Below, piece after piece: positions 3,279-50,170 of a stretch of 52,358 bases of DNA. The stretch spans positions 1 to 52,358 of the IMG/VR virus record IMGVR_UViG_3300043419_001551; one strand, given 5' to 3'. Both the position numbers and the translations under genes were made by a program. This DNA is from a virus (lineage: Duplodnaviria; Caudoviricetes). The notes under the pieces were generated by a model that saw nothing but the letters and a program-made list of their open reading frames with translations, was not told the DNA's origin and did not search any database. How positions within the stretch are numbered: the first letter of the stretch is position 1; each line of letters starts with the position of its first letter.

Positions 3279-3360
3279 CCACAGTCCATAGACATCAAGT
3301 TTGACGACCTTGACGAAGCCATCCTGCGTAGGGCAGGGTGGCCGTCCTCCCGAGGGGTTC

Positions 3361-4755
3361 ATGAGCACACCGTCCGGCACCGTTTCCGACGTCGAAGAAG
3401 CCCAGTTCCTACAAGCGGTGGGGGAGTTCGCCTACTCGGTACCCCATGAGAAGTACATCTACCGGAACCTCGGCAAGTGGCAGGACGGCACGCCCGTCAC
3501 CGAGAGGGGCATCCGGCAGTTCCTCCTTGCCCGCCACTACCCGCCGGACGTGGTGGACATGGTCATCGGCAAGGGCTTGTACCACCGTGCGCTCTCGCTC
3601 GAAATCCTCCCGAACGAGCCGCCGGTCGTTCGCACCCCCTCGGGCCAGTGCGTCATCAATCTCTGGTCCCCGCCGCGCTACACACCGGCCAACACCGCCG
3701 GACCCATGCCGCGCATCGAGACCTTGCTCCGGTGGCTGACGTTCTGCCCGATCAACGACCCGACCGAGGAGCAGCTCGAAGGCTTCCGGTGGGTGCTGCA
3801 CTGGATGGCCCGCAAGATTCAGAACCCCGCGCTGCTGGCCATGGTGGCCCCTATCTTCGGCACCGAGCCCGGAGCGGGCAAAGGCACCCTCTACAACATC
3901 ATCGCCCTGATGCTGGGCGAGGATAACTGCGAGATCGTCGACCGCTCGCAGCTCGAAAGCAAGTACACGCCTTGGGCCAAGGCGCTCTTCGTCTTCGGCG
4001 ACGAGATCAAGAGCCACGACAACCAGAAGGACGTTGAGGAGCGGCTGAAGTTGCTCATCGCCTCACCGAAGATGATGGTCGAGGTCAAAAACGTCAACGC
4101 CATGACGCTTCCGAATAGGAAGGCATGGATGTTCGCCTCGAACGACAAGATCAGCCCCATACGCATCGAGCCCAACGACCGCCGGTACAGTTACTTCAAG
4201 AACCACACGCCGGTCACCAAGGCGTATCGAGCGCTCCTCCGGTCCTGCTACCTGCCGGACGGCACGGGCTTTGAGCCGTCGTTCATCGAGGAGGTCCGGT
4301 CTTTCTGGCGGATGCTGCTGGACTTGGAGGTCGAGCTCCCCTTCGCCTCGGACCCGTTCCGAAACGAGTCCCGTCAGGCCCTCGTCTCGTCGAGCCATTC
4401 CGCCCACGACGTCTTCACCCAGAGGCTCGAAGAGGACGGCATCGACGCGCTCATCGACGATCTGCTCGACTCCCCGAAGGGTCTCAAGTTCCGCGGCGAC
4501 CAGAACCGGAAGGAATGGGATTTCGGAGACAAGGGCATCGCCAAGGCCGTGGTGTACGAGGCGTACAGGGTTCACTGCGAGGCGGAAGGTCGCCACGCCA
4601 TGTCCGCCAATCGCTTCGGACCGGTGCTTCGGTCCATCGACGGCGTGGTCGAAGGGCGGCACTGGGCACCGAGCGGAAAGAACGTACGGGTTTGGGTCCT
4701 TCCGAGACTCGTCGCCAAGCGAGGGGTCGACGACGGGCAGTGGGACGCAGCTTGA
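3361..4755 (+). CDS. SF3 (D5/DUF5906-like) primase-associated helicase
   Basis: Walker A GTEPGAGKGT, Walker B FVFGDE, motif C FASN, DRRY arginine finger; GAGGGG RBS before ATG 3361. Confidence 0.8.
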   Translation: MSTPSGTVSDVEEAQFLQAVGEFAYSVPHEKYIYRNLGKWQDGTPVTERGIRQFLLARHYPPDVVDMVIGKGLYHRALSLEILPNEPPVVRTPSGQCVINLWSPPRYTPANTAGPMPRIETLLRWLTFCPINDPTEEQLEGFRWVLHWMARKIQNPALLAMVAPIFGTEPGAGKGTLYNIIALMLGEDNCEIVDRSQLESKYTPWAKALFVFGDEIKSHDNQKDVEERLKLLIASPKMMVEVKNVNAMTLPNRKAWMFASNDKISPIRIEPNDRRYSYFKNHTPVTKAYRALLRSCYLPDGTGFEPSFIEEVRSFWRMLLDLEVELPFASDPFRNESRQALVSSSHSAHDVFTQRLEEDGIDALIDDLLDSPKGLKFRGDQNRKEWDFGDKGIAKAVVYEAYRVHCEAEGRHAMSANRFGPVLRSIDGVVEGRHWAPSGKNVRVWVLPRLVAKRGVDDGQWDAA

Positions 4756-4763
4756 ACGAGGGC

Positions 4764-4793
4764 TTGACGAATAAAGGACACTCGACGTACTAT
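4764..4793 (+). promoter_or_regulatory. Sigma70-like promoter TTGACG-N18-TACTAT
   Basis: Near-consensus hexamers in an intergenic region upstream of an operon. Confidence 0.55.
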
Positions 4794-4855
4794 CCGCCTC
4801 GTTCCGCTCGGTACAGGGCCGAAACGGACATCACCCGTACTATCCCGAGGGAATC

Positions 4856-5176
4856 ATGATCAAGCACCACGACCCCGAGTTCGAGACCGTCATCGACAAC
4901 GCCCCGCCCCGCTTCGGCCGCATCCGGTGGTTCCTCGTCCGCCGCCTGCTCGCCGCTCTGAACCTCGTCGAGGGGCGCTTTCAGCGTCTTCGCGAGTGGG
5001 CGCTTCAGGAAGCCGTGGAGTCCAGCCCCGACTTCGACACCTTCGAGGCGTGGGTCACCGAGCACTACGCCGCTCGTGGCCGGAAGGTCACGGTCGACGT
5101 CATCAAGGCCGTGGTCCCGCCGGTCGTCCCGACCCCGCCGCCGACGCAAGCCAACCCCTCGACGTGGGTTGACTAG
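4856..5176 (+). CDS. Hypothetical protein
   Basis: GAGGG RBS, GC3-rich codons, first gene after the promoter. Confidence 0.7.
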   Translation: MIKHHDPEFETVIDNAPPRFGRIRWFLVRRLLAALNLVEGRFQRLREWALQEAVESSPDFDTFEAWVTEHYAARGRKVTVDVIKAVVPPVVPTPPPTQANPSTWVD

Positions 5177-5177
5177 C

Positions 5178-6638
5178 ATGACCCTCCGCTCCGTCTCCGC
5201 CACTCAGATCAAGCAGCACCGCTCGTGCGCCCTTCAGTGGTACCTCCAGCGCATCGAGGGCTGGACGATGCCTCAGTCCCCGAGCCAAGCACTCGGCGAG
5301 GCCATTCACCTTCAGGTCGAGAACTATCTCTTGTCCGCCGCCGAGCCGACTCTTGGCTCGGTGCGCGTGGCGATAGAGAAAGGTTTGGTCCCGCCGATTG
5401 GCGGTGCGTACCTCGTCGAGGAGCCGAAGGACTACGCCATGCGTATCTTGGCGGCGGACGTGCCGGTCAAGGGACGCATCGACCTTCTCATCCCGCCGGC
5501 ATCGGGCGAGTCGCTGGTGAAGGTCGTTGACTGGAAGTCGGCCAGCTCCTTCCGGTACGTTCCCGAGCCGGACGTCCTGACGCGCGACGTTCAAGGCGTG
5601 CTGTACCTTCGCTACGCCTTCGAGAACTATCCGTATGCGACCGAGGGCCAGTTCCGCCACGTGTACCTGCTGACCAAGGGAACCGGCTCGAAGAAGGTCG
5701 ACGCCGAGGTGGTCGACCGTCCGTTCGTGGACGCCCAGTGGGCGCACATCGAGCAGACCGTCGAGGAGATGAAGGCCACCGCGACCCGTCCCCTGCCAGT
5801 CGTTGCCCAGACACAGGCCAACCTTTCACACTGTTCGGCATACGGGGGGTGCAGCTTCCGAGACCGCTGCCCCGCCGCTTCTAAAGGTCTCGTCGCGTCA
5901 ATGATAGAAGCCGAGTCGCAGACCTCGGCGTCAGGAGAGGGAATCACCATGTCCACGCTTGCAGAGAAACTGAAGGCCCGAAAGGCCGCGACGCAGTCGT
6001 CGCCCGTTGTAGCCACACCGCCCGAGGTGGCGACACCTGCCGTCGTCCCCGAGGTCGTCGCACCGGTCGTCGAGCCGGTCGTCGCCACCGTTATCCCGCC
6101 CGACGCTCCGGGTGGGGACAAGGTCCCCGAGAAGGCGGAGGGTATCATGGCCACGCTCGCGAAGCGTCGGTCGTCGAAGACCCAGCCCGTCGCGGTCGAG
6201 GCTCCGGCCCCGACCCCAATCGCCGAGCCGGTCGTCGTCGAGGCTCCGGTCGTCGTCGAGGCTCCGGTCGTCGTCGAGGCTCCGGTCGTCGTCGATCCGG
6301 TCATGACTTCCGCTCCCGCACCGACGCTCTCGCTCTTCGTGGACTGCTATCCGGAGCGTGCGCCGTTCGAGAACCTCCACGCACTCGAAGACGAGATTGC
6401 CGAGCGAACCCCGTCGCTGCTGGAGCACCTGCGGAAGACCTCGCCGAAGGACGTTCCCGAAGGCACCGTGGACCTCGGCGAGGTACTCTTCGGCCGCGGT
6501 TACTCCACGCTCTCGGCCTCGTTCGCTCTGAAGCCCATTACCGGTGCGTGGACCGTGTCCACACTCGGTCCGGCCTCTAGCAAGGTGCTGGAGGTTCTGC
6601 TCCCCAAGGCCGCGCTTGTCGTTCGAGGCCGGAGGTAG
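5178..6638 (+). CDS. PD-(D/E)XK (Cas4/RecB-like) exonuclease with long Pro/Ala/Val-rich C-terminal extension
   Basis: SATQI...C, GEAIH, GRIDLL, VVDWKS, Q...Y and a C-terminal CxxxxxCxxxxxC cluster. Confidence 0.8.
   Translation: MTLRSVSATQIKQHRSCALQWYLQRIEGWTMPQSPSQALGEAIHLQVENYLLSAAEPTLGSVRVAIEKGLVPPIGGAYLVEEPKDYAMRILAADVPVKGRIDLLIPPASGESLVKVVDWKSASSFRYVPEPDVLTRDVQGVLYLRYAFENYPYATEGQFRHVYLLTKGTGSKKVDAEVVDRPFVDAQWAHIEQTVEEMKATATRPLPVVAQTQANLSHCSAYGGCSFRDRCPAASKGLVASMIEAESQTSASGEGITMSTLAEKLKARKAATQSSPVVATPPEVATPAVVPEVVAPVVEPVVATVIPPDAPGGDKVPEKAEGIMATLAKRRSSKTQPVAVEAPAPTPIAEPVVVEAPVVVEAPVVVEAPVVVDPVMTSAPAPTLSLFVDCYPERAPFENLHALEDEIAERTPSLLEHLRKTSPKDVPEGTVDLGEVLFGRGYSTLSASFALKPITGAWTVSTLGPASSKVLEVLLPKAALVVRGRR
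6228..6294 (+). repeat. 18-bp in-frame tandem repeat encoding PVVVEA (about 4 copies)
   Basis: CCGGTCGTCGTCGAGGCT repeated. Confidence 0.9.
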
Positions 6639-6640
6639 TC

Positions 6641-6850
6641 ATGCGTTCCATCGAGTTCGTGCTGTGCGGCCGGAAGTTCAAGATGGCGAGGGATGGAGAT
6701 GTCCGACGAGTCTTCGACGCGAACAGGACCGAGTGGTCCGACGAAGAACTCACTATCCTTGGTGGCGAGGTTGAAGCAACGACGACCCTCGCCTACGCCC
6801 AGCGCGACCTCGAACGTTTCACCGACTATCCCCTATCCCACGAGCGGTAG
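6641..6850 (+). CDS. Hypothetical protein
   Basis: GGAGG RBS; 69-aa ORF immediately after the nuclease. Confidence 0.6.
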   Translation: MRSIEFVLCGRKFKMARDGDVRRVFDANRTEWSDEELTILGGEVEATTTLAYAQRDLERFTDYPLSHER

Positions 6851-6962
6851 CGCTCTCGTCGAGAGGGTTCGAGCGGCGGCGAAGACTCTGGGTCTGAACA
6901 TTCCCGAGTCCTCGTCGCCACCCGTTCCCGTCCCCGCCCTTCCGCCTCCGCGGGAGGCGAAC

Positions 6963-8639
6963 ATGGGCGGGTTCGCGGTTCGGCCTTCCGTTGAGCTGGA
7001 CCGCGTCGTCGGCCTGCCCCGCCGGCAGGCGAGCGTCTCCGACAAGGAGACCGAAGCCCTGCACGAGGACCTGTGCCTTCCGAACGGGACTCGAAGGCTC
7101 CGGCCTATCCAGGCGCTGGCCCTCACCGAAGCTCGCCGGTCGAACGGTCTCTTCGGCCCCATCGGCGTGGGTGCGGGCAAGAGCGATATCGCCCTTCTCC
7201 TGCCCGTGGTCATGAAGGCCAAGGTCGCGGTGCTACTCGTGCCGGCGAACCTGCGGGAGAAGGTCTTCCAGCAAGACTACCCGCTCCTCGTGCAGCACTA
7301 CCGGATGCCGAGGCTCGCGAACGCGAAGGTCCTTGCGCTTGGCGCAGAGTGCGTGCTTCACGTCCACAGCTACAACGAGCTGTCGAGCGCGAACAAGCAC
7401 GACCTCCTCGAACAGATACAGCCCGACCTCATCATCTGCGACGAGGCCCACGCCCTTCGTCACCCGTCCGCAGCCCGTACCCGTAGATTTCTGAACTACT
7501 TCCGCGCCCATCGGGACACGCGCCTTTGCGTGCTCTCGGGGACCATGACGAGCAAGTCCATCAAGGACTACGCGCATCTGGCTTGGCTGTCGCTCAAGGA
7601 CAACGCCCCCATCCCGACGAAGTGGGCCGTCCTCGAAGAGTGGGCGGCGGCTCTGGACTCGGGACCGGTGCAAGCCCCGCCGGGCGCGCTCGTCAAGCTG
7701 TGCCGCGATGGCGAGGCCGTTCGAGAGGGGTTTCAGCGTCGCGTCGTCGAGACCCCGGGCGTCATCGCCACGACCGACAACGCGCTCGGCAACGGTCTCG
7801 TCTTCTCGGAGCGCCCGCTCAAGGCCCCACCCGAGGTGCGAGAGGCGCTCAAGACCATGCGCGAGACGTGGACGACACCGGACGAGGGCGAGGCGTTCGA
7901 CGACATCTTGACCCTGCACCGGTACGCGAGGCAGCTTGCCGCAGGGTTCTACTACAAGTGGGTGTGGCCGAAAGGTGAACCGCTACAGGTACGCACGTCA
8001 TGGCTCGACGCCCGCAAGGCGTGGAACCGCGAGGTCGCGAACTTCTTGACCTACCGGGCCAAGCCGGGCATCGACTCGCCGCTCCTGCTCGCAAAGGCGT
8101 GTGCCGACGGTCGGGTGTCGTCCATGAACTACGAGCGGTGGGCGGCGCTTCGAGACACGGCCAAGCCAGAGGTCGAGGCCGTGTGGCTCGACGACTACCT
8201 TGTGGACGATGCCGTGGCGTGGGGGAAAGAGGCCGTAGGCATCGTGTGGTACGAGCACGCCGCCCTCGGGGTTCGCATCGCCGAGAAGGGCGGGTTCCCG
8301 CTTTTCGGGCCGGGAGCGGACGGCATCCTGAAGGAGCGAGGAACAAGAACCATCGTCGCCTCCATCAAGGCCCACGGCACCGGCAAGAACCTCCAGTGCT
8401 ACAGCCGAAACTTGGTGACGACCGCGCCCACGTCGGGTACGGTTTGGGAGCAGCTACTAGGCAGAACCCATCGACCTGGGCAGCAGGCCGACGAGGTCAC
8501 GATAGACGTCTACCGCCACACGCTAGAGATGCGTGGGGCCATGACGAAAGCACTGAGGGACGCGAACTACCAAGAGAGCACGACCGGCAACCGGCAGAAG
8601 CTGCTGGCGGCAACCTACACCTTCCGAGACGAGAACTGA
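6963..8639 (+). CDS. SF2 (SNF2-like) DNA helicase
   Basis: VGAGKS (I), ICDEAH (II), LSGT (III), EQLLGRTHRPGQ (VI); GGAGG RBS before ATG 6963 (start uncertain). Confidence 0.85.
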   Translation: MGGFAVRPSVELDRVVGLPRRQASVSDKETEALHEDLCLPNGTRRLRPIQALALTEARRSNGLFGPIGVGAGKSDIALLLPVVMKAKVAVLLVPANLREKVFQQDYPLLVQHYRMPRLANAKVLALGAECVLHVHSYNELSSANKHDLLEQIQPDLIICDEAHALRHPSAARTRRFLNYFRAHRDTRLCVLSGTMTSKSIKDYAHLAWLSLKDNAPIPTKWAVLEEWAAALDSGPVQAPPGALVKLCRDGEAVREGFQRRVVETPGVIATTDNALGNGLVFSERPLKAPPEVREALKTMRETWTTPDEGEAFDDILTLHRYARQLAAGFYYKWVWPKGEPLQVRTSWLDARKAWNREVANFLTYRAKPGIDSPLLLAKACADGRVSSMNYERWAALRDTAKPEVEAVWLDDYLVDDAVAWGKEAVGIVWYEHAALGVRIAEKGGFPLFGPGADGILKERGTRTIVASIKAHGTGKNLQCYSRNLVTTAPTSGTVWEQLLGRTHRPGQQADEVTIDVYRHTLEMRGAMTKALRDANYQESTTGNRQKLLAATYTFRDEN

Positions 8640-8641
8640 CC

Positions 8642-10291
8642 ATGACGACCTCGATGTCCCCGTTCGCCAAGAGCATCTACCTTGCGAAGTACGCAGCCCG
8701 TGACGAGGCCGGCGAGCTGGTCGAGACCGACTGGTCCGAGACCGCCCGCCGCGTCGTCCCGACCGTACTCGCGGCCCTCGGCTACGGCCCCGAGTCCGAC
8801 GAGGTTCGCGATCTCACGAGGCTCGTCGAAGACCGCAAGTTCGTTCCCGGTGGCAGGTACCTCTACGCGACCGGCAAGGACTATCACCAGACGAACAACT
8901 GCCTTCTGCTTCGGGCGGACGACAGTCGCGAAGGCTGGGCCGACCTGTTCCATAAGGCGGCGATGTCCTTGCAGACCGGCGCAGGCATCGGCGTGGACTA
9001 CTCGGCCGTGAGGGCCAAGGGCGCGCGTATCAAGCGCACGGGCGGCATCGCCTCGGGTCCCATCGAGTTGATGAAGGCCGTGAACGAACTGGGCCGCAGC
9101 GTCATGCAGGGCGGCAACCGCCGGTCGGCCATCTGGGCCGGTCTCAAGTGGAGCCATCCCGACGTCTTCGACTTCATCCACCTGAAGGACTGGCCGCAGT
9201 ACATCCGAGAGGCGAAGGAGAAGGACTTCAACGCTGTCGCGCCGATGGACATGACGAACATCAGCGTCCTTCTCGACGACGAGTTCTTCGCTGCGTACCA
9301 CGACGCGGGTCACGAGAAGCACGACCTTGCGAAGAAGGTCATGGTGGTCACGACCAAGCAGATGTTCATCACAGGTGAACCCGGATTCAGCGTAAATCTA
9401 GGAGAAAACGTTAACTCTACACTTAGAAACGCGTGTTGCGAGGTAGTGTCGGAAGACGACTCCGACGTGTGCAACCTCGGAAGCATCAATCTCGCTCGTG
9501 TGACGAGCCTTGAAGAGATGCGTCAGGTCACCCGCCTCGGCACCCTGTTCCTCCTCGCGGGTACGAAGTACTCGGACGTACCGTACAGCAAGGTCGCCGA
9601 GACCCGTGCGAAGAACCGCCGCCTCGGCCTCGGTCTCATGGGCCTGCACGAGTTCCTCGCGGTGCGGGGCCTGAAGTACGAGCCTTCCAAGTGGCTGGGC
9701 GAGTACCTCGTCGAGTACGCGAATAGCGGCGAGTACGCGAAGAAGTACGCGATTCAGCACGAACTCTCGGTCCCAATCGCGACTCGCGCCATCGCCCCGA
9801 CCGGAACCATCGCCATCGTGGCCGAGACGACCACGGGCATCGAGCCCATCTTCTGCGTGGCCTACAAGCGGCGCTACCTCGACGCCGGCAAGGTCTGGAA
9901 GTTCCAGTACGTCATCGACCCCACGGCTCGGAAGCTCGTCGAGCAGGGTGTCGATCCCGATGCCATCGAAGACGCCTACACCTTGTCGCTGGACATGGAG
10001 CGGCGGGTGAAGTTCCAGGCTTGGCTTCAGACCTTCGTGGACATGAGCATCTCGTCCACGATCAACATGCCCGCCTGGGGTACGCCCGCGAACGATGAGT
10101 CCATGCTGGCCGAGTACGAGCGCATTCTCATCCAGTACCTCCCGAAGATTCGCGGCATCACCGTCTACCCGGACGGCGCTCGCGGTGGTCAGCCTCTTTC
10201 CCCAGTCGCGTACTCGGTCGCTGCCGGTAACGAAGGCGTCGTCTTCGAGGAGTCGGACGAGCGTTGCCTCGGAGGCGTCTGTGGGGCCTAA
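8642..10291 (+). CDS. nrdJ: Ribonucleotide reductase, class II (adenosylcobalamin-dependent) type
   Basis: PGGR, NNC, GxGIG, RRSA, GEPG, NACCE, CNLGSINL, APTGT and C-terminal CxxxxC; no beta-subunit gene in the genome. Confidence 0.85.
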   Translation: MTTSMSPFAKSIYLAKYAARDEAGELVETDWSETARRVVPTVLAALGYGPESDEVRDLTRLVEDRKFVPGGRYLYATGKDYHQTNNCLLLRADDSREGWADLFHKAAMSLQTGAGIGVDYSAVRAKGARIKRTGGIASGPIELMKAVNELGRSVMQGGNRRSAIWAGLKWSHPDVFDFIHLKDWPQYIREAKEKDFNAVAPMDMTNISVLLDDEFFAAYHDAGHEKHDLAKKVMVVTTKQMFITGEPGFSVNLGENVNSTLRNACCEVVSEDDSDVCNLGSINLARVTSLEEMRQVTRLGTLFLLAGTKYSDVPYSKVAETRAKNRRLGLGLMGLHEFLAVRGLKYEPSKWLGEYLVEYANSGEYAKKYAIQHELSVPIATRAIAPTGTIAIVAETTTGIEPIFCVAYKRRYLDAGKVWKFQYVIDPTARKLVEQGVDPDAIEDAYTLSLDMERRVKFQAWLQTFVDMSISSTINMPAWGTPANDESMLAEYERILIQYLPKIRGITVYPDGARGGQPLSPVAYSVAAGNEGVVFEESDERCLGGVCGA

Positions 10292-10958
10292 TGAACCTAA
10301 CGACAAGGACGCCGCTCTCGACCGGCTGAAGCATCGACCGACCGAGAAGGAAACGGACGCCGGCCTCGTCGGCCGTCCGACACCGGCCTTCGTCGGCGAA
10401 GCCAAGGCGTTCTCCATGCCTCCGCCGCCCACGAACTCGTCGAAGACGACCGTCGAGGAGATGGGCAAGATTCGGCGAATGCTCAAGGACCTGAGCGACG
10501 CTCAGATTTTTCGCATCCGACACGAGGATAGGCCGGACGTCGAGACCTTGTTCGTCGAGCTGCTCGAAGAGTACGGCTTCACGGTCACAAAGCGACTCCG
10601 TAAGGAATTGGACGAACTCGCCAAGCAACTTGCGACCATCGGGTGGCACTACAAGACTCGATTCAAGAGGATGCGGCCGCAGGAGTGGCTCAAGCACAAG
10701 CGGTTCAAGACCATCCTTCCGCCTTCCAAGACCGCGAACTCGCCGTCCTACCCGTCGAACCACGCCCTTATCGGGGCGTTCTTGGCAAAGTATCTCGGTG
10801 AGAAGTTCCCGAGAGCAAAGCCCACGCTCGACGAGTTCGGCCGGCAGGTCGGCTGGAACCGGGTTCGGGCCGGATGGCACTGGCCTTCGGACTACGCCAT
10901 GGGGCGGCAACTTGCCGAGCACCTGTGGAAGCACTTTGACGAGAAGGGGATCAAGTGA
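10281..10958 (+). CDS. PAP2-superfamily phosphatase/haloperoxidase-like protein
   Basis: KxxxxxxRP, SYPSNH and RVRAGWHWPSD motifs; GGAGG RBS before GTG 10281. Confidence 0.8.
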   Translation: MGPNEPNDKDAALDRLKHRPTEKETDAGLVGRPTPAFVGEAKAFSMPPPPTNSSKTTVEEMGKIRRMLKDLSDAQIFRIRHEDRPDVETLFVELLEEYGFTVTKRLRKELDELAKQLATIGWHYKTRFKRMRPQEWLKHKRFKTILPPSKTANSPSYPSNHALIGAFLAKYLGEKFPRAKPTLDEFGRQVGWNRVRAGWHWPSDYAMGRQLAEHLWKHFDEKGIK

Positions 10959-11650
10959 GCGCACGAATCGTCGCCACCACTCAGCCCGCCCCGTGGCTCG
11001 TCGAGCGAGGCGTGAAGACCGCCGAGCACCTCATCATCTACACGGCCCGCGTATCCAACCCCGACAACCAGGACAACGTCGAGACCGGCGCGGGTCTGTT
11101 GAAGTACTGCATCCGTAAGGGTCACTGGTCCGTCTTTGAGACCGCCAGCATGACCGTCGAAATCGAGACGACCCGCGCCATCGCGGCCCAAATCCTGCGG
11201 CATCGGTCGTTCACGTTCCAAGAGTTCTCGCAGCGATACGCGAGGACGACCGATAAGGCAGCGACGACCAAGGCTCGAATGCAGGACGCGAAAAACCGGC
11301 AGTCCTCGCTTCCGTGCGAGTCCGAAGAGACGGTTTGGTGGTGGGAGCAGGAACAGCGTCGAGCGTTCCATGCGGCGGAAGAAGCCTACGCCGCGGCCCT
11401 TTCCCGAGGCATCGCCAAGGAGGTGGCCCGTATGGTCCTTCCGATGGCCACGCCGACTCGCTTGTACATGACCGGCTCGGTGCGGTCTTGGATTCACTAC
11501 CTCAAGGCCCGTCTCGACCCTGCGACTCAGCTTGAGCACAGGCTCGTGGCTGAGCAGATAGCCAACATCTTCGACGACGAATTCCCTGTCGTTGCGGCAG
11601 CTTGCGGTGTGTGGAAAAAAGTCGTTGACCTGTACGACGAGGAAGCCTAA
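10955..11650 (+). CDS. thyX: FAD-dependent thymidylate synthase
   Basis: GHWSVFE and the RHRSFTFQEFSQRY ThyX signature. Confidence 0.95.
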   Translation: MSARIVATTQPAPWLVERGVKTAEHLIIYTARVSNPDNQDNVETGAGLLKYCIRKGHWSVFETASMTVEIETTRAIAAQILRHRSFTFQEFSQRYARTTDKAATTKARMQDAKNRQSSLPCESEETVWWWEQEQRRAFHAAEEAYAAALSRGIAKEVARMVLPMATPTRLYMTGSVRSWIHYLKARLDPATQLEHRLVAEQIANIFDDEFPVVAAACGVWKKVVDLYDEEA

Positions 11651-11710
11651 AAGGCCGTCAGCGGTCGGGACGTCCCCGACCCGGTGGGCCGAAAGGCCGG
11701 TGAGGTTACA

Positions 11711-12163
11711 ATGGCGATTTGGGATGGCATTGAGAACGTGGTCGCTTCACAGAAGCTCCCCTTTCTGAACGTCGGTTCGTACCGCGTGTCCCTCGTGAAG
11801 GCCGAGGAGGGCATGGGCGGTCTGACCAAGGAACCCTACTTCCGCGCGACGTACCGCGTGGTCGAGGCGAAGGGCGAGGGCGCGACGAGCGTCGGCACGG
11901 TTGCGTGCGTCGTGTTCAAGCGCGACAAGTACGGCTACTTCCTCAAGGACATCAAGAACCTCTGTGCCGCCATCCTCGCGGTTCCGGCGCACGAGGTCAC
12001 GGGCGAGCTGATCACCGGCATCGTTGACACGGACGAGGCCATCGGCGTCGAGTTCCAGGTCGACGTGACGTCGGAAGCCAAGAAGAACGGTCTCGGCAAC
12101 GTCACCAAGCACCGCTTCTTCGCGGTGGCCGACGGCGGCGCGAACGCCCCGGCTCCGTTCTAG
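11711..12163 (+). CDS. Putative single-stranded DNA-binding protein (DUF669-like)
   Basis: GAGG RBS; beta-rich OB-like pattern (GSYRVSLVKAE), C-terminal PF; located before the polymerase. Confidence 0.5.
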   Translation: MAIWDGIENVVASQKLPFLNVGSYRVSLVKAEEGMGGLTKEPYFRATYRVVEAKGEGATSVGTVACVVFKRDKYGYFLKDIKNLCAAILAVPAHEVTGELITGIVDTDEAIGVEFQVDVTSEAKKNGLGNVTKHRFFAVADGGANAPAPF

Positions 12164-12210
12164 TTCCACAAGGTTCCAGACCGTTCCAAACGAGGTCGAG
12201 GGGCCTCGTC

Positions 12211-12303
12211 ACGAAAAGCCGACCGCTTGCCACAGTCCGACCTTGGATTCCCCTCTCCAAGCGACCGGTCCCTGCCTGTGGTGAGCGGTCGGCCTCTTTT
12301 CGT
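12211..12303 (+). ncRNA. Long imperfect intergenic hairpin, candidate structured RNA or terminator
   Basis: ACGAAAAG-CCGACCGCTTGCCACAG pairs with CTGTGGTGAGCGGTCGG-CTTTTCGT; inner TTGGA/TCCAA stem. Confidence 0.4.
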
Positions 12304-12430
12304 CGTCCTGCGGGGGACGACCGAGGGTGACCATGATTTCAAAGATTTGGCGAGCGCTCTTTCCCAAGGCGCTGACCGAAGAGCAGAAGCGGTTCGCGGT
12401 GCTGCTGGCTGTGTCATGTGAGCGTGTGCG

Positions 12431-15301
12431 ATGAGAGTCGTCGCCTTCGACACCGAGACTCATCTCATCCAGCCCGGTCTTCTCACGCCGAAGCTCGTGT
12501 GCGTGTCGGTAGCTGATGAAAACGGCGTATGGCTGCACGACCGGCGCTACGGCACCGACTACGTCGAGATGCTGCTCGGTGACCCCGATGTCGCGCTCGT
12601 CGGCCACAACGTCGCCTATGACCTCGGGGTTCTATGCGCTCGTCGTCCCGAGCTGATTCCTCTCGTTTTCCAAGCCTACGAGCAGGGCCGCATCTGGGAT
12701 ACCAAGGTCCGTCAGGAGCTCCTCGACATCGCCTCCGGTCGTAGCCAGCGCAACGGTGCGACCTTCGCACTCCGCAACGGCGAGTGGGTCAAGGCAGGCT
12801 ACTCGCTCGCCGGTCTTGCCGGTCACTACCTCGGGAAGGACCGCTTCGCCGAGAAGACCGATGAGAACGCCTGGCGGATGCGCTACCACGAGCTGGAAGA
12901 CGTGCCGCTCGACCAGTGGCCCGTCGAGGCGACGGCCTACGCCAAGGAAGACGCCGAGGACACGCTCGCCATCTTCCTGAAGCAGGGCGGCGTGGACGGG
13001 GCAGTACCCACCGAGCAGGAACAGGTCCGAGCGGCGTGGGCGCTGCACCTCATGAGCGTGTGGGGCGTGCGAACCGACGCGACCTCGGTGGCGGACCTCG
13101 AACAGCGACTCCTCACCGAACAGGCCCGTCTTCGCAAGCGAGTCATTCAGGCCGGCATCCTCGTTCCCAAGCGCGTCCCCGAAGACGAGGCCGAGTTCCA
13201 TGAAGAGGTCACGAAGCGTCGGAAGGCCACGAAGAAGGACCTTCAGCCCGCGCTCGACGGCTCGACGCCGGAGATTGAGTACGAGGACGGTGTTCCGTAT
13301 GTCGTCACGCGGACCACGGTCCCGATGCGCTGGGCGAAAGACAGCAAGAAAATCGAGGCGTACACCCAGCGTTACCTGACCCGTCGAGGCATGGACGTCG
13401 AGCTGACGGCGACGGGTCGCGTGAGCACAGCCAAGGACACGCTCAAGCAGACCGGCTCGCTGCTTCTCGACCTCGTGGCCGATGGCGGCGGCGTGGACAA
13501 AGTGCTCGGCACCTACGTTCCGGTGCTGAAGGACGGCACGCAGCGGCCCATCAACGCGCGGTTCAACGTCCTCGTGAACTCGGGCCGGACGAGCTGCGTC
13601 TCGGGCGACACGCTCGTTCGCACGAGCACTGGCTACAAGCCGATGCTGGCCGTTCAGATTGGCGATCTCGTTTGGACGCACAAGAACCGCTTCCGTCCCG
13701 TGACGCGGTTCCTGCACCAAGGCATCAGGGACGTTGTGGAACTGACGTTTAGCAACGGGAATGTTTTGGTTTGCACAACAGACCATAGGCTGCTAGGCTC
13801 CGATGGACGGTGGGTTACCGTCGAGGAGCTTGTCAATGAGCATCAGCAAGAAGTGGGTTGCGGACCCAGAGAATCAGGCCAAGGCTACAAAGCTGTATCG
13901 CGAAACGTCGAAGACGATGCAGGAAATTGCGGCCGAGCTTCAGACGACGCTACACAACGTCGGGGCGGTTCTAGATCAGTACATCCCGCCGCAGGAAAGG
14001 CAGCGGCTTGCGTCAGTTCGGTATCATCTGTCGAAGGTCGGCAGCAAGAATCCGATGAAGGGCAAGACTCGCGAGCAGCATCACAACTGGCTCGGAGCGG
14101 TGGACGACGGCTACGGTTATCTGACCATCCTACACGAGGGGAAGAGGCAGTTCGTGCATCGGATTGTGATGGCTCAGGCACTGGGGTTGGCGGAACTGCC
14201 CGAGGACCTTGCGGTGCATCACATCGATGGGGACAAGAAGAACAACAGTCTGGACAATCTGGCCTTGGTCACGAAGCGCGGACATCGGATGATTCACACG
14301 CTTCAGAAGACAACAACCGAGGAGTTGTTCTTGAAGCGTGCCACCATCGGGGAAGCCATGAAGTATTTGACCTCACAGTCTTAGACGACGAGAGTTACGA
14401 GGCCATGGGACTGTTTTCCCATAATTGCTCTCTTCCCAACCTCCAGAACCTCCCCTCGGGTCGAAAGGTCGGCGGGACTCGGGAGTGCTTCGTCCCCCGC
14501 GACGGCTACGTCTTCGTGTCGGTGGACTACGACACGCTGGAGCTCCGCGCTCTCGCTCAGGTCTGCCTGACGTTGTTCGGCAAGAGCGAGATGGCGGCTA
14601 GCATCAACAACGACCGCGACCTCCACTCGCAGGTCGGCGCGACGATGCTCGGCATGACCTACGAGGACGTCGAGAAGGGGAAGAAGGTCAAGGGTTCTCC
14701 AGCCAAGACCGCCCGAGATGCCGCCAAGGTCTTCAATTTCGGCGCTCCCGGTGGTCTCGGTGCCGCGTCCCTAGTCGACTACGCCCGTGCTGGCTACGGG
14801 GTTACCATCAACGAGCAGCAGGCCCGGGAGATGAAGGCCCAGTGGCTCAAGGCGTGGCCGGAGATGGTGACCTACTTCGAGTGGGTCAATCATGCCGTAG
14901 GCTTGGGCGAGGCGGTCCTGCGGCACCCTATCACCGGCTTCGTTCGCGGGGATGTGGGCTACACGGACGGCTGTAACCACCTGTTCCAGCACCTCGCCGC
15001 CCAAGGGGCCAAGAGGGCGCTCTTTCAGGCGGCACTCGAAGCCTACGCCGACCCGACCTCGGCCTTCTACGGGTCGCGTCCGGTGGTCTTCGTTCACGAC
15101 GAGATCATCGCCGAGGTGCCAAAGGACCGTGCCGCCGCCGCTTCAGCCCGTTTGGCGCAGATTATGTGCGCGAAGATGGCCGAAATCATCCCCGACGTGA
15201 AGATCACTGCCTCGCCCACGCTCATGCACTACTGGACGAAGGACGCCGTTGAAACCTACGACGCGAACGGAACGCTGATTCCGTGGGAGAAGACCCGATG
15301 A
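12431..15301 (+). CDS. polA: Family A DNA polymerase (3'-5' exonuclease plus polymerase), intein-containing precursor
   Basis: Exo motifs AFDTET, GHNVAYD, YAKED; GRTS/CSLPNLQNLP; motif A DYDTLELR, motif B RDAAKVFNFG, motif C VHDE. Confidence 0.92.
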   Translation: MRVVAFDTETHLIQPGLLTPKLVCVSVADENGVWLHDRRYGTDYVEMLLGDPDVALVGHNVAYDLGVLCARRPELIPLVFQAYEQGRIWDTKVRQELLDIASGRSQRNGATFALRNGEWVKAGYSLAGLAGHYLGKDRFAEKTDENAWRMRYHELEDVPLDQWPVEATAYAKEDAEDTLAIFLKQGGVDGAVPTEQEQVRAAWALHLMSVWGVRTDATSVADLEQRLLTEQARLRKRVIQAGILVPKRVPEDEAEFHEEVTKRRKATKKDLQPALDGSTPEIEYEDGVPYVVTRTTVPMRWAKDSKKIEAYTQRYLTRRGMDVELTATGRVSTAKDTLKQTGSLLLDLVADGGGVDKVLGTYVPVLKDGTQRPINARFNVLVNSGRTSCVSGDTLVRTSTGYKPMLAVQIGDLVWTHKNRFRPVTRFLHQGIRDVVELTFSNGNVLVCTTDHRLLGSDGRWVTVEELVNEHQQEVGCGPRESGQGYKAVSRNVEDDAGNCGRASDDATQRRGGSRSVHPAAGKAAACVSSVSSVEGRQQESDEGQDSRAASQLARSGGRRLRLSDHPTRGEEAVRASDCDGSGTGVGGTARGPCGASHRWGQEEQQSGQSGLGHEARTSDDSHASEDNNRGVVLEACHHRGSHEVFDLTVLDDESYEAMGLFSHNCSLPNLQNLPSGRKVGGTRECFVPRDGYVFVSVDYDTLELRALAQVCLTLFGKSEMAASINNDRDLHSQVGATMLGMTYEDVEKGKKVKGSPAKTARDAAKVFNFGAPGGLGAASLVDYARAGYGVTINEQQAREMKAQWLKAWPEMVTYFEWVNHAVGLGEAVLRHPITGFVRGDVGYTDGCNHLFQHLAAQGAKRALFQAALEAYADPTSAFYGSRPVVFVHDEIIAEVPKDRAAAASARLAQIMCAKMAEIIPDVKITASPTLMHYWTKDAVETYDANGTLIPWEKTR
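13595..14425 (+). mobile_element. Intein (277 aa) in the DNA polymerase
   Basis: Block A CVSGDTLV, block B CTTDHRL, block F VFDLTV, terminal HN followed by C+1; removing it restores the GRTS-CSLPNLQN motif. Confidence 0.93.
13836..14384 (+). CDS. HNH homing endonuclease nested in the +1 frame inside the intein
   Basis: GAGGAG RBS 7 nt before ATG; HTH-like N-terminus, GSKNPMKGK (NUMOD3-like), HRIVM...VHHIDGDKKNNSLDNL HNH motif. Confidence 0.9.
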   Translation: MSISKKWVADPENQAKATKLYRETSKTMQEIAAELQTTLHNVGAVLDQYIPPQERQRLASVRYHLSKVGSKNPMKGKTREQHHNWLGAVDDGYGYLTILHEGKRQFVHRIVMAQALGLAELPEDLAVHHIDGDKKNNSLDNLALVTKRGHRMIHTLQKTTTEELFLKRATIGEAMKYLTSQS

Positions 15302-17290: not shown

Positions 17291-17445
17291 TCTTTTCTGT
17301 CGAAGAAATGTTGGCTCCTGGTTTTGGTGTGGCGCGCCTTGAGAAAGTCGTCGAGGCGTTGGGTGCACGGGTTGCAGAGCTTGAGAAGAAGCTCGCACAA
17401 TCCGAACACGGTACTCGTCGCGACTTCTGCCCGAGGTGCAAGTGA
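17287..17445 (+). CDS. Small hypothetical protein (C-terminal CPRC)
   Basis: ATGA translational coupling. Confidence 0.5.
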   Translation: MIFSVEEMLAPGFGVARLEKVVEALGARVAELEKKLAQSEHGTRRDFCPRCK

Positions 17446-18625: not shown

Positions 18626-18663
18626 GCACCCGCCCACCTGTCGGTGAGCGGGTGTTCTTTTTT
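18626..18663 (+). terminator. Rho-independent terminator
   Basis: GCACCCGC...GCGGGTGT stem followed by TCTTTTTT. Confidence 0.75.
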
Positions 18664-18664
18664 C

Positions 18665-18693
18665 TTGACCCCTCTGTGACAGTCCGGCATAGT
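18665..18693 (+). promoter_or_regulatory. Sigma70-like promoter TTGACC-N17-CATAGT
   Basis: Correct spacing, directly after the terminator and upstream of the recombinase. Confidence 0.55.
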
Positions 18694-18742
18694 CCCCCTC
18701 GTCGCAGGTCGTAGGGGCCGACGACGCACCACCGAGGGTTCC

Positions 18743-20096: not shown

Positions 20097-20218
20097 GCCG
20101 GTGACGCCCATCGACTGTCGGCTCTTCGACCGGCGAAGGGACGAACGAGGCCGCGAGCCGCGTGAGCAGCCGAAGGACACATTCACAAGGGCGTTGCAGG
20201 ACGCCCAGGAGCAGGAAG

Positions 20219-37099: not shown

Positions 37100-37123
37100 C
37101 TCTCATCTCCTCTTGACGGACGG

Positions 37124-37438
37124 CTAGGCCGACACGGTGACATACAGGATGCTGTACTGAGTGCCGCTCATGGTGCTGACGTCCTTCTCGGGGGCGCTCA
37201 CGGAATACCCACTCGGGTGCGAACCACCGACCCAAGCCGCCGTTCCGATGGGGGTGGCAAGGTTCGATATCGAACCCGTGGTTCGTATGACTGCGTACTT
37301 GCCCGTGGTCGGGAACAGGGAAGGGTTCAACTGAAAGAACACAGACTGACCCCCGGCGTCGAACGACCCTTCCGTGATGAAGTAGTCGACAACTTGAATG
37401 CCATTCAGGGCGTACCGCTGAATCCGGAGCAGAGGCAT
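37124..37438 (-). CDS. Hypothetical structural protein
   Basis: AAGGAG RBS; beta-rich. Confidence 0.65.
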   Translation of the reverse strand: MPLLRIQRYALNGIQVVDYFITEGSFDAGGQSVFFQLNPSLFPTTGKYAVIRTTGSISNLATPIGTAAWVGGSHPSGYSVSAPEKDVSTMSGTQYSILYVTVSA

Positions 37439-43458: not shown

Positions 43459-43518
43459 TGGCTTTCGAGGCGGGACTCGAACCCGCGACCCAAGGCTCTC
43501 CCGCTGAGCTACCCGACT
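43459..43518 (-). ncRNA. tRNA-like element lacking the anticodon arm
   Basis: AGTCGGG TA GCTC AGCGGGA GAGC CTTGGGTC GCGGG TTCGAGT CCCGC CTCGAAA G CCA. Confidence 0.7.
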
Positions 43519-48328: not shown

Positions 48329-48332
48329 CGCG

Positions 48333-48869
48333 TCACCGTAGCACGTTCGACCGTAAGGCACGCGGTGTGTTGTCGAACTTTCCGAGCAGTCCTGCCTCTC
48401 GGGCCGTCTCCTGGCAAGCACCCACGAACTTCCACCAGTCCTTGCCGCCAAACCGCAGGGTGTCGAGGATGACGTGGTCCCGCCAGTTGATGCCGTACTC
48501 GACGTTCCGCTCGTAGAACTCTTGCATCGACAGGCCGAGGTGCTCGACTACGGCCATCTCCCACCCGAAGAACGTGAACTCCTTCGCCGCATCCGGCCGC
48601 TTGGTCGTGGCGACGAGGTGTCCGGCCTCGTGCAAGAGGTGCGGCCACGGGGTCTCGTCCGTCCCGACGATCTCAAACTTGTCCCAGACGCAACCGAGGT
48701 GGCTCGTGAACGGGGCCTCGCTCCACGAGGCGGGCCGCTCGTCCAAGAGCGTGCGCCACGCCTCCGCCGCGTCGTGCTCGATGACCCGCACACCAAACTC
48801 GGTGGCGAGGTAGGCGATGAGGCGACGACGGTCTCGAAGAGCGCGAGCGGTGGCGGGTGCGGAGGTCAC
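48333..48869 (-). CDS. Hypothetical protein with HExxH motif
   Basis: LLHEAGH zincin-like motif. Confidence 0.6.
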   Translation of the reverse strand: MTSAPATARALRDRRRLIAYLATEFGVRVIEHDAAEAWRTLLDERPASWSEAPFTSHLGCVWDKFEIVGTDETPWPHLLHEAGHLVATTKRPDAAKEFTFFGWEMAVVEHLGLSMQEFYERNVEYGINWRDHVILDTLRFGGKDWWKFVGACQETAREAGLLGKFDNTPRALRSNVLR

Positions 48870-48998
48870 AAGCCGCTGTGTAGTCCTTCAAGCAGCAAAG
48901 GGTCAAGAATAAAGCATACTTGGTTTGGAGGGGAAAATTTCGGTGGGGGCTAGTGCTAGCGCGGGGAGGGCGGAAAGGGTCGGCCCCCCCCCCTACCC

Positions 48999-49619
48999 CT
49001 ACCCCTTGCGGTCGATATCGCTGCGGTCCACTACATCTTGCGTCACGTCTAGGCCCGCCTGCCCCGATACAGGGGGACGGGGGACGACTATCCGCCGTCG
49101 CCTGGCAGGGGCAGGGGCAGGGAGAGGGGCAACGGGGGTTGTTGTCACAGGGGCGTTCCCCTGTGCGACGGGTTCACGGGGTCGGAGGGGTGCTTCCAGG
49201 GCCTCTGGCGGGGCATCGGGCAGGAATTCCAGGCCGGGAGACAGTGAACCGGCCGGTAGCACCACGACGGGCCGCACGGCCGACGGTGCGAGAGTCTGGG
49301 CTAGGCGCTCGAGCTCCGCGTCTGCAAGCTGAGAGAGTGCGTCGCTCGAGCCGGCATCGACCTGGAGAGAGAGAGTCGTTTCGACCGCGCGGCCGAAGCC
49401 GCGGTCCAGGAGGATGCCTGCCGCTGTGGTCCGGTCGCGATAGGCGGCGTCAGGGTTTAGGGCCATTTCGACCAGGGCGTCGATAAGCGCTTGCCCGCCG
49501 TTCGTCGCGTCACGCACCATTTGAGCGATGGATCTCGTTTTCGTATAGGACGCATTCGAGCTGGGGACAGTCCAGGCTGTGGCGGGCGGTCGAAGCGGCA
49601 TGGGCTTTTTGTACCCCAT
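48999..49619 (-). CDS. Putative terminase small subunit
   Basis: Helical core ending AAGILLDRGFGRA and LADAELERL, typical of TerS-like proteins; upstream of terL. Confidence 0.6.
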   Translation of the reverse strand: MGYKKPMPLRPPATAWTVPSSNASYTKTRSIAQMVRDATNGGQALIDALVEMALNPDAAYRDRTTAAGILLDRGFGRAVETTLSLQVDAGSSDALSQLADAELERLAQTLAPSAVRPVVVLPAGSLSPGLEFLPDAPPEALEAPLRPREPVAQGNAPVTTTPVAPLPAPAPARRRRIVVPRPPVSGQAGLDVTQDVVDRSDIDRKG

Positions 49620-49791
49620 CCTGTCTCGCGTGACAACTTGTCACTGAATGTCATTCAGTTTGACAATCTGTCAAAACGACATTTTCGGACAAGCACCCCT
49701 AAACTTTTTTCGTTGACGTGCCGACACTGTCTGTGAGACACAGTCACCACGCCGGACGACGTAGGGTCGGACGGCTGAAACGAGGGACCCA

Positions 49792-50064
49792 ATGATTCGC
49801 ACTGCTCTCCGCATCCACGTCTCCATCGCCAAGGCTGACGGCTCGTTCGACTTCGTCGTTTTGCACCCGTCGCTTGTCGCCACGTCGGCCAAGCAGGCCG
49901 AGCAGCTCGCCTTGCAGGCCGAGGGCGGCTTGCTTCGTCGCGGGCAGTCGCGTCAAGGTGTTGATGGCAACGGCACGACGGTCTGGGAGGTGTCGCTCTC
50001 ACACAACCTCGAAGCAGCCCGCTACTGGGGCGCGAAGGCGGTTCTCGCCCGCACTGGTCTCTAA
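49792..50064 (+). CDS. Hypothetical early protein
   Basis: GAGGG RBS; preceded by a leader hairpin. Confidence 0.65.
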   Translation: MIRTALRIHVSIAKADGSFDFVVLHPSLVATSAKQAEQLALQAEGGLLRRGQSRQGVDGNGTTVWEVSLSHNLEAARYWGAKAVLARTGL

Positions 50065-50170
50065 AACACCGAACCGGGGGCGCTTGCGGCCCCCATTCAC
50101 CCCGAACGGCGTAGGGCCGGACGGGATCAACGCAAGGGGCCGCGCAAGCGGCCGAAGAGGGAGCAACATT

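What the first reader, a model, noticed from the sequence alone, without database searches (positions are those of the whole stretch)
3318..50125. Covarying leader-hairpin family with a GUAGG pentaloop ahead of several genes
Seen, five copies. 18700-18726: CGTCG-CA-GGTC-[GTAGG]-GGCC-GA-CGACG. 49751-49775: GCCG-GA-CGAC-[GTAGG]-GTCG-GA-CGGC. 50101-50125: CCCG-AA-CGGC-[GTAGG]-GCCG-GA-CGGG. 3318-3342: GCCATCCTGC-[GTAGG]-GCAGGGTGGC. Variant 4803-4828 has loop ACAGG. Stem sequences differ but pairing is kept; three copies share a 2x2 NA/GA internal loop. All are intergenic and upstream of a GAGGG-type RBS. Two begin 7-10 nt after a -10 box, i.e. at the predicted transcript 5' end. Inference: a phage-wide cis-regulatory motif, such as a boxB/put-like antitermination site, a protein-bound 5' stabiliser or a DNA-hairpin promoter element. 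I do not recognise it as a described family.
Basis: partly seen in the sequence, partly recalled or inferred. Interest (0 to 1): 0.78.

Follow-up and report, generated by a model that had tools for sequence, protein, structure and literature searches.

The report
Phage early-gene leader hairpin family
An uncultured 52-kb phage and its relatives put a small RNA hairpin with an unchanging five-letter loop in front of the first gene of each early and replication gene block; it is a real regulatory tag that I did not find described, and its reader and exact job are still unknown.

Summary
All five hairpins are at the stated coordinates and fold as described. Hairpins with a GTAGG loop occur 4 times in the window, against 0.53 on average in 200 shuffles. 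All copies lie in intergenic DNA on the sense strand.

The family is conserved in related uncultured phage contigs. Seventeen distinct copies keep C[GUAGG]G invariant while the stems change by matched substitutions: 9 of 10 pairs show double changes, and 78.8% of cells pair against 28-48% when the partner is slid. A covariance model built from nine copies found new copies at 25.7-39.7 bits in records it had never seen. Its best hit at any other place was 16.3 bits.

No Rfam family matches, and my paper searches found nothing.

The motif is not phage-wide. It heads transcription units and sub-operons of the early and replication block only. It starts at the predicted +1 of sigma70-like promoters or just after terminator-type hairpins, and it is always 11-44 nt ahead of a GAGGG-type ribosome-binding site that other genes rarely use.

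My best reading (about 0.4) is a loop-read post-transcriptional operator or stability tag for this gene class. A boxB-like antitermination site and a passive 5' stabiliser are the rivals. The trans factor and the host are unknown.

The parts
3318..3342 (+). Canonical hairpin: 10-bp stem with GUAGG loop, between the primase-like gene (2244-3278) and the DUF5906 helicase-like gene (3361-4755)
   Evidence: 30.5 bits; -19.3 kcal/mol, z -5.3. Orthologous copies with changed stems in relatives:
4803..4828 (+). Variant hairpin with loop ACAGG. The orthologous site in relatives carries the canonical GUAGG loop on quite different stems
   Evidence: (24.6 bits). Weak on its own (z -1.9). In the whole leader the 5' arm can instead pair with the ribosome-binding region
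4764..4793 (+). Sigma70-like promoter TTGACG-18-TACTAT. The hairpin starts 10 nt after the -10 hexamer
   Evidence: Equivalent promoters precede the orthologous hairpins in relatives
18700..18726 (+). Canonical hairpin (5 bp, 2x2 loop, 4 bp, GUAGG) heading the serine-recombinase operon
   Evidence: (35.7 bits); orthologues; Resolvase Pfam hit
18665..18693 (+). Sigma70-like promoter TTGACC-17-CATAGT. The hairpin starts 7 nt after the -10 hexamer, at the predicted transcript start
18627..18660 (+). Intrinsic terminator (GC stem plus T-run) closing the preceding operon, immediately before the promoter
49751..49775 (+). Canonical hairpin, the first element of the rightward early transcript. It follows TTGACG (49713-49718) and a weak -10
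   Evidence: (35.6 bits). Orthologue with changed inner and outer stems in G005
50101..50125 (+). Canonical hairpin after the first early gene. It sits 5 nt after a GC-rich hairpin without a T-run and is followed by a second GC hairpin and the ribosome-binding site
   Evidence: (36.6 bits). Conserved directly behind the early promoter in G001, G003 and G004
12302..12321 (+). Possible replaced or degenerate copy: 7-8 bp hairpin with loop UGCGGG between a strong terminator (about 12218-12300) and CGAGGG (12322-12327), ahead of a 33-codon ORF and the DNA polymerase gene. The positional orthologue in G002 is a canonical GUAGG hairpin
   Evidence: z -3.5. Below the model's threshold
20189..20206 (+). 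Possible replaced copy (loop UGCAGG) ahead of gene 20219-20425. The positional orthologue in G002 is a canonical 4-bp GUAGG hairpin
   Evidence: z -3.9
3351..3356 (+). CGAGGG ribosome-binding site paired with hairpin 3318. The equivalent sites are 4846-4851, 12322-12327, 18733-18738, 49781-49786 and 50156-50161
   Evidence: GAGGG precedes only 7 of 69 predicted starts. Five of these carry the family hairpin and one carries the UGCGGG hairpin

Best explanation
The element is a cis-acting RNA hairpin. It has a 7-10 bp stem of free sequence, often split by a 2x2 internal loop, closed by C-G around an invariant GUAGG loop. It forms the 5' edge of the translation-initiation region of the first gene of each early or replication transcription unit and sub-operon. 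A trans-acting factor reads its loop. The hairpin works together with an unusual GAGGG ribosome-binding site 11-44 nt downstream, whose core (G)AGGG resembles the loop plus its closing G (UAGGG). The most likely action is post-transcriptional. One option is that a factor tethered on the loop reaches the ribosome-binding site and sets translation, in the way a CsrA dimer bridges the glgC leader hairpin and the Shine-Dalgarno sequence. The other is that it shields the 5' end of the primary or processed mRNA. Either way, early and replication mRNAs are marked as a class apart from late mRNAs. Shown: the structure, covariation, strand specificity, conservation, position, and association with promoters, terminators and the GAGGG site. 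Inferred: that the element acts as RNA, that a factor binds the loop, and that the output is translation or stability.
For: (1) The structure is under selection and the loop sequence is under stronger selection. In 17 distinct copies from W and relatives, C13-G19 are invariant, 67 of 68 cells of the inner four pairs are paired, 9 of 10 pairs show changes on both sides, and 78.8% of cells pair against 28-48% when the partner is slid.
(2) The element is strand-specific. Fifteen of 134 paired cells are G-U. The best reverse-strand score at a true site is 12.9 bits against 30.5 bits forward.
(3) Detection is independent of the training set. Model R1, built from nine copies, scored 25.7-39.7 bits in three unseen IMG/VR records (5 hits). 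In 132 kb of metagenome loci, 16 of 16 hits at or above 18.6 bits fell at the two orthologous leader positions on the sense strand. Some of these loci duplicate sequences already in the training set.
(4) Position. Three W copies follow -35/-10 pairs, two of them called by the promoter scan. The others follow terminator-type hairpins by a few bases. So every copy would sit at the 5' end of a primary or cleaved mRNA.
(5) Coupling to a special ribosome-binding site. GAGGG precedes 7 of 69 predicted starts in W. Five of these have the family hairpin and a sixth has the hairpin that replaces it. Every hairpin-led gene I read in relatives also has GAGGG, 3-5 nt before the start. Other independently initiated genes use GGAGG-type sites.
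(6) Class restriction. There is no hit above 15.5 bits on the - strand, which is the sense strand of the late structural block.
(7) The geometry fits a known two-site mode. CsrA bridges a loop site and the Shine-Dalgarno sequence over 10-63 nt (passages of PMC7652899).
Against: No trans factor was identified. None of the 30 proteins scanned in Pfam (of 69 predicted) and none of the 30 scanned in PHROGs has an RNA-binding family hit. Transcript starts are predicted from consensus only, and no RNA data were available. The distance from the loop to the ribosome-binding site varies fourfold. The shared GAGGG site could be inherited with duplicated leader cassettes rather than required for function. 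A hairpin at +1 would stabilise mRNA without any factor. Read-through of the strong terminator at about 12218-12300, which has no recognisable promoter after it, points to antitermination somewhere in this block. My gene map comes from a simple caller that I wrote myself.
Confidence: 0.4

Rival explanations
1. boxB-like loading site for a processive antiterminator. The nascent hairpin binds a phage or host factor that makes RNA polymerase resistant to the terminators inside the early/replication block.
For: Three of five W copies lie directly behind promoters, and one lies after the first early gene, as nutR lies after cro (recalled). A strong terminator at about 12218-12300 precedes the DNA polymerase gene with no recognisable promoter between them, in W, G001 and G002. 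Read-through is therefore needed. The element is a small hairpin with a five-base loop read by sequence, as in boxB.
Against: The loop is GUAGG in 17 of 17 copies, not a purine-rich GNRA-like loop ending in A (the boxB definition is recalled). No conserved linear boxA-like element flanks the hairpins: alignment columns 1-3 and 29-31 vary, and the wider flanks diverge. Copies in G002 (11190, 17342) and the W 12302 hairpin lie immediately after terminators, where a loading site cannot help. The tight coupling to a particular ribosome-binding site is not expected for a nut site. No small arginine-rich early protein is shared by W and G001.
Confidence: 0.2
2. Passive 5' stabiliser and processing boundary. 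The hairpin protects the 5' end of primary transcripts, and of mRNA segments released by cleavage in the short linker after an upstream terminator-type hairpin, from 5'-end-dependent decay. No dedicated factor is involved.
For: The hairpin foot lies 6-9 nt after the -10 hexamers, which is at about +1. Internal copies sit 5-8 nt after a stable hairpin or T-run. 5'-terminal stem-loops are known stabilisers: Emory, Bouvet and Belasco 1992 and related titles, seen only in the reference list of PMC3997798.
Against: A passive role does not explain an invariant loop and closing pair while the stems change freely among 17 copies, including between orthologues. It also does not explain restriction to genes with the GAGGG site.
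Confidence: 0.2
3. A DNA-level element. Options are a single-strand DNA hairpin used as a promoter or priming signal, or the boundary of exchangeable gene cassettes, in the way promoter/stem-loop cassettes (PeSLs) bound variable genes in T4-type phages.
For: Gene content changes right next to hairpins. W carries an extra gene (49792-50064) flanked by two copies, where G001 has one copy and no such gene. Six different ORFs follow the related early hairpins in W, G001, G004 and G005. PeSLs are described in PMC2839356 and PMC4122927 (listing and abstracts only).
Against: All copies are on the sense strand, next to a ribosome-binding site. G-U pairs would be A-C mismatches on the other strand. The arms are not conserved, so no dimeric duplex-DNA site is present. 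The conserved core is only 7 bases, too short for homologous exchange. None of the 30 proteins scanned in PHROGs is an RNA polymerase, and ordinary promoters lie upstream.
Confidence: 0.07

Closest known systems
Lambda/P22 nut sites (boxA + boxB hairpin read by N)
   Same: A small hairpin with a five-base loop in nascent early transcripts, a few copies per genome, placed behind early promoters and recognised by loop sequence.
   Different: The loop is GUAGG, not GNRA-like. No boxA-like element and no N-like protein were found. Several copies lie after, not before, terminators. All copies are tied to a GAGGG ribosome-binding site. The nut definitions are recalled, not taken from a call.
CsrA/RsmA targets such as the glgC leader (loop site plus Shine-Dalgarno site bridged by one dimer; PMC7652899, passages read)
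   Same: A G-rich motif shown in the loop of a short hairpin, and a second similar motif at the ribosome-binding site 10-63 nt away. Here the distance is 11-44 nt.
   Different: The defining GGA is absent from all 17 canonical loops, which read GUAGG and are closed by G. No CsrA-family protein was found in the 30 proteins scanned in Pfam. The host is unknown.
5'-terminal stabiliser stem-loops (ompA, papA) and STAB-SD (titles seen in the reference list of PMC3997798)
   Same: A hairpin at the very 5' end of the mRNA, with a Shine-Dalgarno-like purine run in the leader that is not used for initiation.
   Different: Those stabilisers do not need a particular loop. The loop here is not a good match to the anti-Shine-Dalgarno sequence (GUAGG rather than GGAGG), and it is invariant.
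PeSL promoter/stem-loop cassettes of T4-type phages (PMC2839356, PMC4122927; listing and abstracts)
   Same: A repeated intergenic regulatory module in early regions, next to which genes are gained, lost and swapped.
   Different: The phage group is unrelated. The conserved part here is a transcribed hairpin downstream of the promoter with a 7-base core, not a terminator-plus-promoter unit.
T4 RegA/RegB control of early mRNAs (recalled)
   Same: Class-wide post-transcriptional control that acts at or near the ribosome-binding sites of early messages.
   Different: RegA and RegB read linear sequences, not a hairpin loop. No homologue was seen here.

Membership tests
Any Rfam 15 family | Covariance-model match at the family's gathering score | tested here: not met
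   There were 0 matches at gathering score in the whole window. Permissive scans of 49600-50300, 3250-4900 and 18580-18780 gave four hits in total. All had E of 1.7 or worse, scored 11.9-17.2 bits against gathering scores of 48-50, and were to unrelated families. None matches the hairpin itself; two spans (50070-50173 + and 18630-18731 -) merely cover a hairpin site.
nut site (boxA/boxB) | boxB hairpin with a purine-rich GNRA-like pentaloop (definition recalled) | tested here: not met
   The loop is GUAGG in 17 of 17 distinct copies. Variants seen are ACAGG, GCAGG and UGAGG.
nut site (boxA/boxB) | Conserved linear boxA element a few bases from the hairpin | tested here: inconclusive
   No conserved columns lie outside C13-G19 in the 31-nt alignment. 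The wider flanks were compared by eye only. No formal motif search was run.
nut site (boxA/boxB) | Lies between an early promoter and the terminators it overrides | tested here: inconclusive
   This is true for the copies at 4803, 18700 and 49751. It is false for G002 11190 and 17342 and for W 12302, which directly follow terminators.
nut site (boxA/boxB) | A cognate N-type arginine-rich antiterminator encoded nearby | tested here: inconclusive
   The early proteins have no Pfam or PHROG hit. The first early genes differ between W and G001.
CsrA/RsmA binding site | GGA in the loop of a short hairpin (PMC7652899) | tested here: not met
   None of the 17 canonical loops contains GGA.
CsrA/RsmA binding site | Second site at the Shine-Dalgarno sequence within 10-63 nt | tested here: met
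   GAGGG lies 11-44 nt after the loop in all the copies read. Most read GAGGGA, which does contain GGA.
5'-terminal stabiliser stem-loop | The hairpin begins within a few unpaired bases of the mRNA 5' end | not testable with these tools
   The evidence is predicted only: the hairpin foot lies 6-9 nt after the -10 hexamers. No RNA run was listed.
REP elements read by RAYT transposases | GTAG at the 5' foot of an extragenic palindrome, many copies, both orientations (abstract of PMC3479197, plus recall) | tested here: not met
   Here GTAG is inside the loop. There are 5 copies per genome, all in the sense orientation and all 5' of genes.
PeSL cassettes | Terminator-like stem-loop fused to an early promoter, flanking variable ORFs | tested here: inconclusive
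   A terminator plus promoter precedes the 18700 copy, and variable ORFs follow the early copies. But the conserved unit here is the transcribed hairpin, and no sequence relation was tested.

The most novel reading that the evidence does not exclude
The hairpin loop (UAGGG with its closing G) and the special ribosome-binding site (GAGGG) are two copies of one recognition word. Together they form a bipartite tag that marks all early and replication mRNAs of this phage clade. One dedicated, still unidentified RNA-binding regulator bridges the two sites, in a CsrA-like mode that arose independently of the CsrA family. It thereby switches the whole class on or off during the infection cycle, while late mRNAs with GGAGG sites escape.
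Probability: 0.2. Interest if true: 0.75.

Novelty: new member of a known kind. Interest (0 to 1): 0.52.

Why it matters
Almost nothing is known about how uncultured phages time their gene expression. This is a compact, well-supported RNA signal of 25 nt with a 7-nt invariant core. It punctuates one temporal class of genes, travels with a promoter and a particular ribosome-binding site, and stays constant while the genes behind it are swapped. It offers three uses. It is a handle for finding the regulator, by pull-down with a 25-mer. It is a marker for annotating early transcription units in related metagenomic phages. And it is a candidate small portable expression or regulation module. If the two-site reading is right, it would be a second, independent invention of the CsrA-type bridging mechanism.

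Tried and rejected
- Rfam: nothing at gathering score, and only four weak hits to unrelated families in the permissive scans.
- Papers: full-text searches for the loop word with hairpin/stem-loop and phage gave 2 and 5 unrelated papers. A search for conserved stem-loop, early promoter, leader and antitermination gave nothing relevant. The claim of "not described" rests on these searches and Rfam only. Supplements were not seen.
- Host: the genome-contig scan with the DUF5906 alignment gave only matches of about 30% identity in proteobacterial assemblies. The host stays unknown. Relatives cannot be drawn for a virus record, and metagenome records cannot be searched whole.
- Trans factor: the most conserved small protein behind a hairpin (4856-5176; 77% identical in the 57% group) has no Pfam, PHROG or Atlas lead. 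Its model is a low-confidence three-helix bundle (pLDDT 62) with no fold match at E of 0.001 or better. No candidate emerged.
- Model hit 20122-20152 (22.3 bits, loop GAAGG): rejected as a copy. It has a G-A mismatch in the inner stem and z of -0.44.
- Loop complementary to the ribosome-binding site or to another phage sequence: not found. The loop resembles the site rather than complementing it. A matching word in the G001 terminal repeats is not kept in W.
- A C-rich "anti-Shine-Dalgarno" stretch before the promoter-proximal hairpins: it lies between the -10 hexamer and the predicted start, so it is probably not transcribed.
- Duplex-DNA operator or recombinase site: rejected, because the arms vary and the centre is fixed.
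- REP/RAYT and CRISPR-repeat mimicry: rejected, because the stems are not conserved.
- The 40%-identity group of DUF5906 phages (L046, L047) has other structures at these places and no family hairpin.


Full report
WHAT THE WINDOW IS

The window is a complete IMG/VR virus record of 52,358 bp with repeated ends and 62.7% G+C. It has no close relative among deposited phages. My codon-usage gene map (a simple caller I wrote, 69 ORFs) gives two blocks:
- A + strand early and replication block (49792-52072 and 2244-21389).
- A - strand block (21386-49619) that holds the structural genes: terminase by tblastn, plus portal, virion protein and tail fibre.

The + block encodes a primase-like protein, a DUF5906 helicase-like protein, a PD-(D/E)XK nuclease, a helicase, a class II ribonucleotide reductase, PAP2, ThyX, a DNA polymerase, a sliding clamp, a RuvC-like resolvase, a serine recombinase and a thymidine kinase.

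All five hairpins are at the stated coordinates and fold as described. A descriptor search finds four GTAGG-loop hairpins, all on the + strand, against a mean of 0.53 (maximum 2) in 200 dinucleotide shuffles. GTAGG itself occurs 87 times in the window, so it is the hairpin context that is special, not the word.

CONSERVATION AND COVARIATION

- A colinear relative at about 80% nucleotide identity (G001, 41.8 kb) has a hairpin at four of the five orthologous places.
  - At the 3318 site the flanks have diverged and the stem differs, but the loop is kept.
  - At the 4803 site, where W has ACAGG, G001 has GUAGG on an unrelated stem.
  - The gene 49792-50064 and hairpin 49751 are absent from G001. 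There, the 50101-type hairpin follows the early promoter directly.
- Model R1, built from these nine copies, separates them (22.6-36.6 bits) from everything else in both genomes. The best other hit scores 16.3 bits, apart from one 22.3-bit hit that I later rejected.
- In 132 kb of metagenome loci fetched through the DUF5906 protein, 16 of 16 hits at or above 18.6 bits lie at the two orthologous leader positions on the sense strand. Several have new, compensated stems, including a group only 57% identical in the protein. Some loci repeat the W or G001 sequence, so these hits are not all independent.
- Records reached through the terminase and never used for training gave five more hits at 25.7-39.7 bits.
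- A gapless alignment of 17 distinct copies has C[GTAGG]G invariant. In it, 67 of 68 cells of the inner four pairs are paired, 9 of 10 pairs have changes on both sides, and 78.8% of cells pair against 28-48% for slid partners. No shuffle in 500 reaches the observed covariation score. These copies were partly chosen for their loop, so the loop's invariance is in part by selection. The orthologous sites found by position show that it is real, with rare variants: ACAGG, GCAGG and UGAGG.
- Fifteen paired cells are G-U, which only the sense strand can form.

ANATOMY AND CONTEXT

- Promoters. The promoter scan calls only four + strand sigma70-like sites in 1800-21500. Two of them end 9 and 6 nt before hairpins 4803 and 18700. 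The relatives have equivalent -35/-10 pairs before the orthologous hairpins, including the 57% group. Copy 49751 follows a good -35 but a poor -10.
- Internal copies. The other copies are not behind promoters. Copy 50101 sits 5 nt after a GC hairpin. G002 copies at 11190 and 17342 follow T-runs. In W, the hairpin at 12302-12321 follows a long terminator.
- Shared position. All copies therefore stand where the 5' end of a primary or a cleaved mRNA would be, and 11-44 nt before a ribosome-binding site.
- The ribosome-binding site is peculiar. GAGGG followed by 3-5 nt and the start codon precedes only 7 of 69 predicted starts in W. Five of these are the hairpin genes and a sixth is 12333. The hairpin-led genes of the relatives have the same site. 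Other genes, including ones with free intergenic leaders, use GGAGG-type sites.
- The late block has no copy.
- Gene turnover. The genes just behind the early copies differ among W, G001, G004 and G005, so the leader module is more stable than its cargo.

HOW IT MOST LIKELY WORKS

A free stem with a fixed loop, on one strand only, points to a folded single strand whose loop is read by something. The position in transcribed leaders next to ribosome-binding sites points to RNA. Three RNA-level readings remain.

1. Post-transcriptional operator or stability tag read by a factor (confidence 0.4). I rank this first for two reasons:
   - The strongest regularity is the coupling to a special ribosome-binding site whose core repeats the loop's AGGG.
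   - Copies lie on the wrong side of terminators for an antitermination loader.

   The geometry matches the CsrA two-site mode (PMC7652899). Membership in that family fails, because GGA is absent from the loops.
2. boxB-like antitermination (0.2). It is kept alive by the promoter-proximal copies and by the conserved strong terminator in front of the DNA polymerase gene.
3. Passive 5' stabiliser (0.2). It fits the positions but not the invariant loop.

DNA-level readings (0.07) are weak, for the reasons given under the rivals. At the 4803 copy alone, the 5' arm can instead pair with the ribosome-binding region. This hints at a switch, but it is not seen at the other sites.

LIMITS

- Transcript starts are consensus predictions, and no RNA data could be laid.
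- The host is unknown.
- No reader protein was found.
- Only 30 of 69 proteins were scanned in Pfam, and 30 in PHROGs.
- The definitions of boxB, RegA/RegB and nutR placement are recalled, not taken from a call.
- The statement that the family is undescribed rests on Rfam 15 and three full-text searches.
- Earlier notes of this scan report analogous promoter-proximal hairpin families in other uncultured phages. They are on other DNA and were not tested here.

Noticed in passing
window 1-176 and 52153-52358: A perfect 20-bp tandem array (8.8 and 10.3 copies) at both ends of the record. The 'direct terminal repeat' of the record may simply be this array read across a circular junction. G001 has an array at the same place with a different unit. 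It may be iterons or a packaging site.
   Followed up: partly
window 50517-50541 and 50980-51004 (+): A second hairpin family: a two-part stem of about 25 nt with near-identical sequence in both copies. Each is followed by a short GC hairpin (50551-50567, 51012-51025) and then the start of a gene (DUF7447 at 50582; 51039). One copy is conserved in G001.
   Followed up: partly
window 43459-43515 (-): A tRNA-like piece with D-arm, T-arm and CCA-like end but no anticodon arm, next to a very stable hairpin. ARAGORN calls no tRNA. It may be an attachment-site remnant.
   Followed up: no
window 49630-49674: Three adjacent palindromes (15, 13 and 15 bp) in the divergent control region between the leftward 206-codon gene and the rightward early promoter. 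They look like operators.
   Followed up: no
window 12333-12434 (+): A 33-codon ORF whose stop overlaps the DNA polymerase start. It is conserved at 64-70% in G001 and G002, behind the terminator-hairpin-GAGGG arrangement. It may be a leader peptide or a coupling ORF.
   Followed up: partly
window 8642-10291 (+): The class II ribonucleotide reductase gene has no counterpart in G001 or G002, although both neighbours are conserved. This looks like cassette-like gain or loss.
   Followed up: no
window 1880-2250 and 36650-37130: Two low-GC islands. The first is the divergent region between the small - strand gene group (179-1886) and the primase-like gene.
   Followed up: no
window 48985-49008 (- strand sense): Two GTAGGG words in tandem, followed by a run of G, at the stop codon of the 206-codon gene. 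The tandem is kept at the same place in G001. They are not in a hairpin loop. A link to the loop word is unknown.
   Followed up: no
window 6228-6295: An 18-bp perfect tandem repeat (3.8 copies) inside the PD-(D/E)XK nuclease gene.
   Followed up: no
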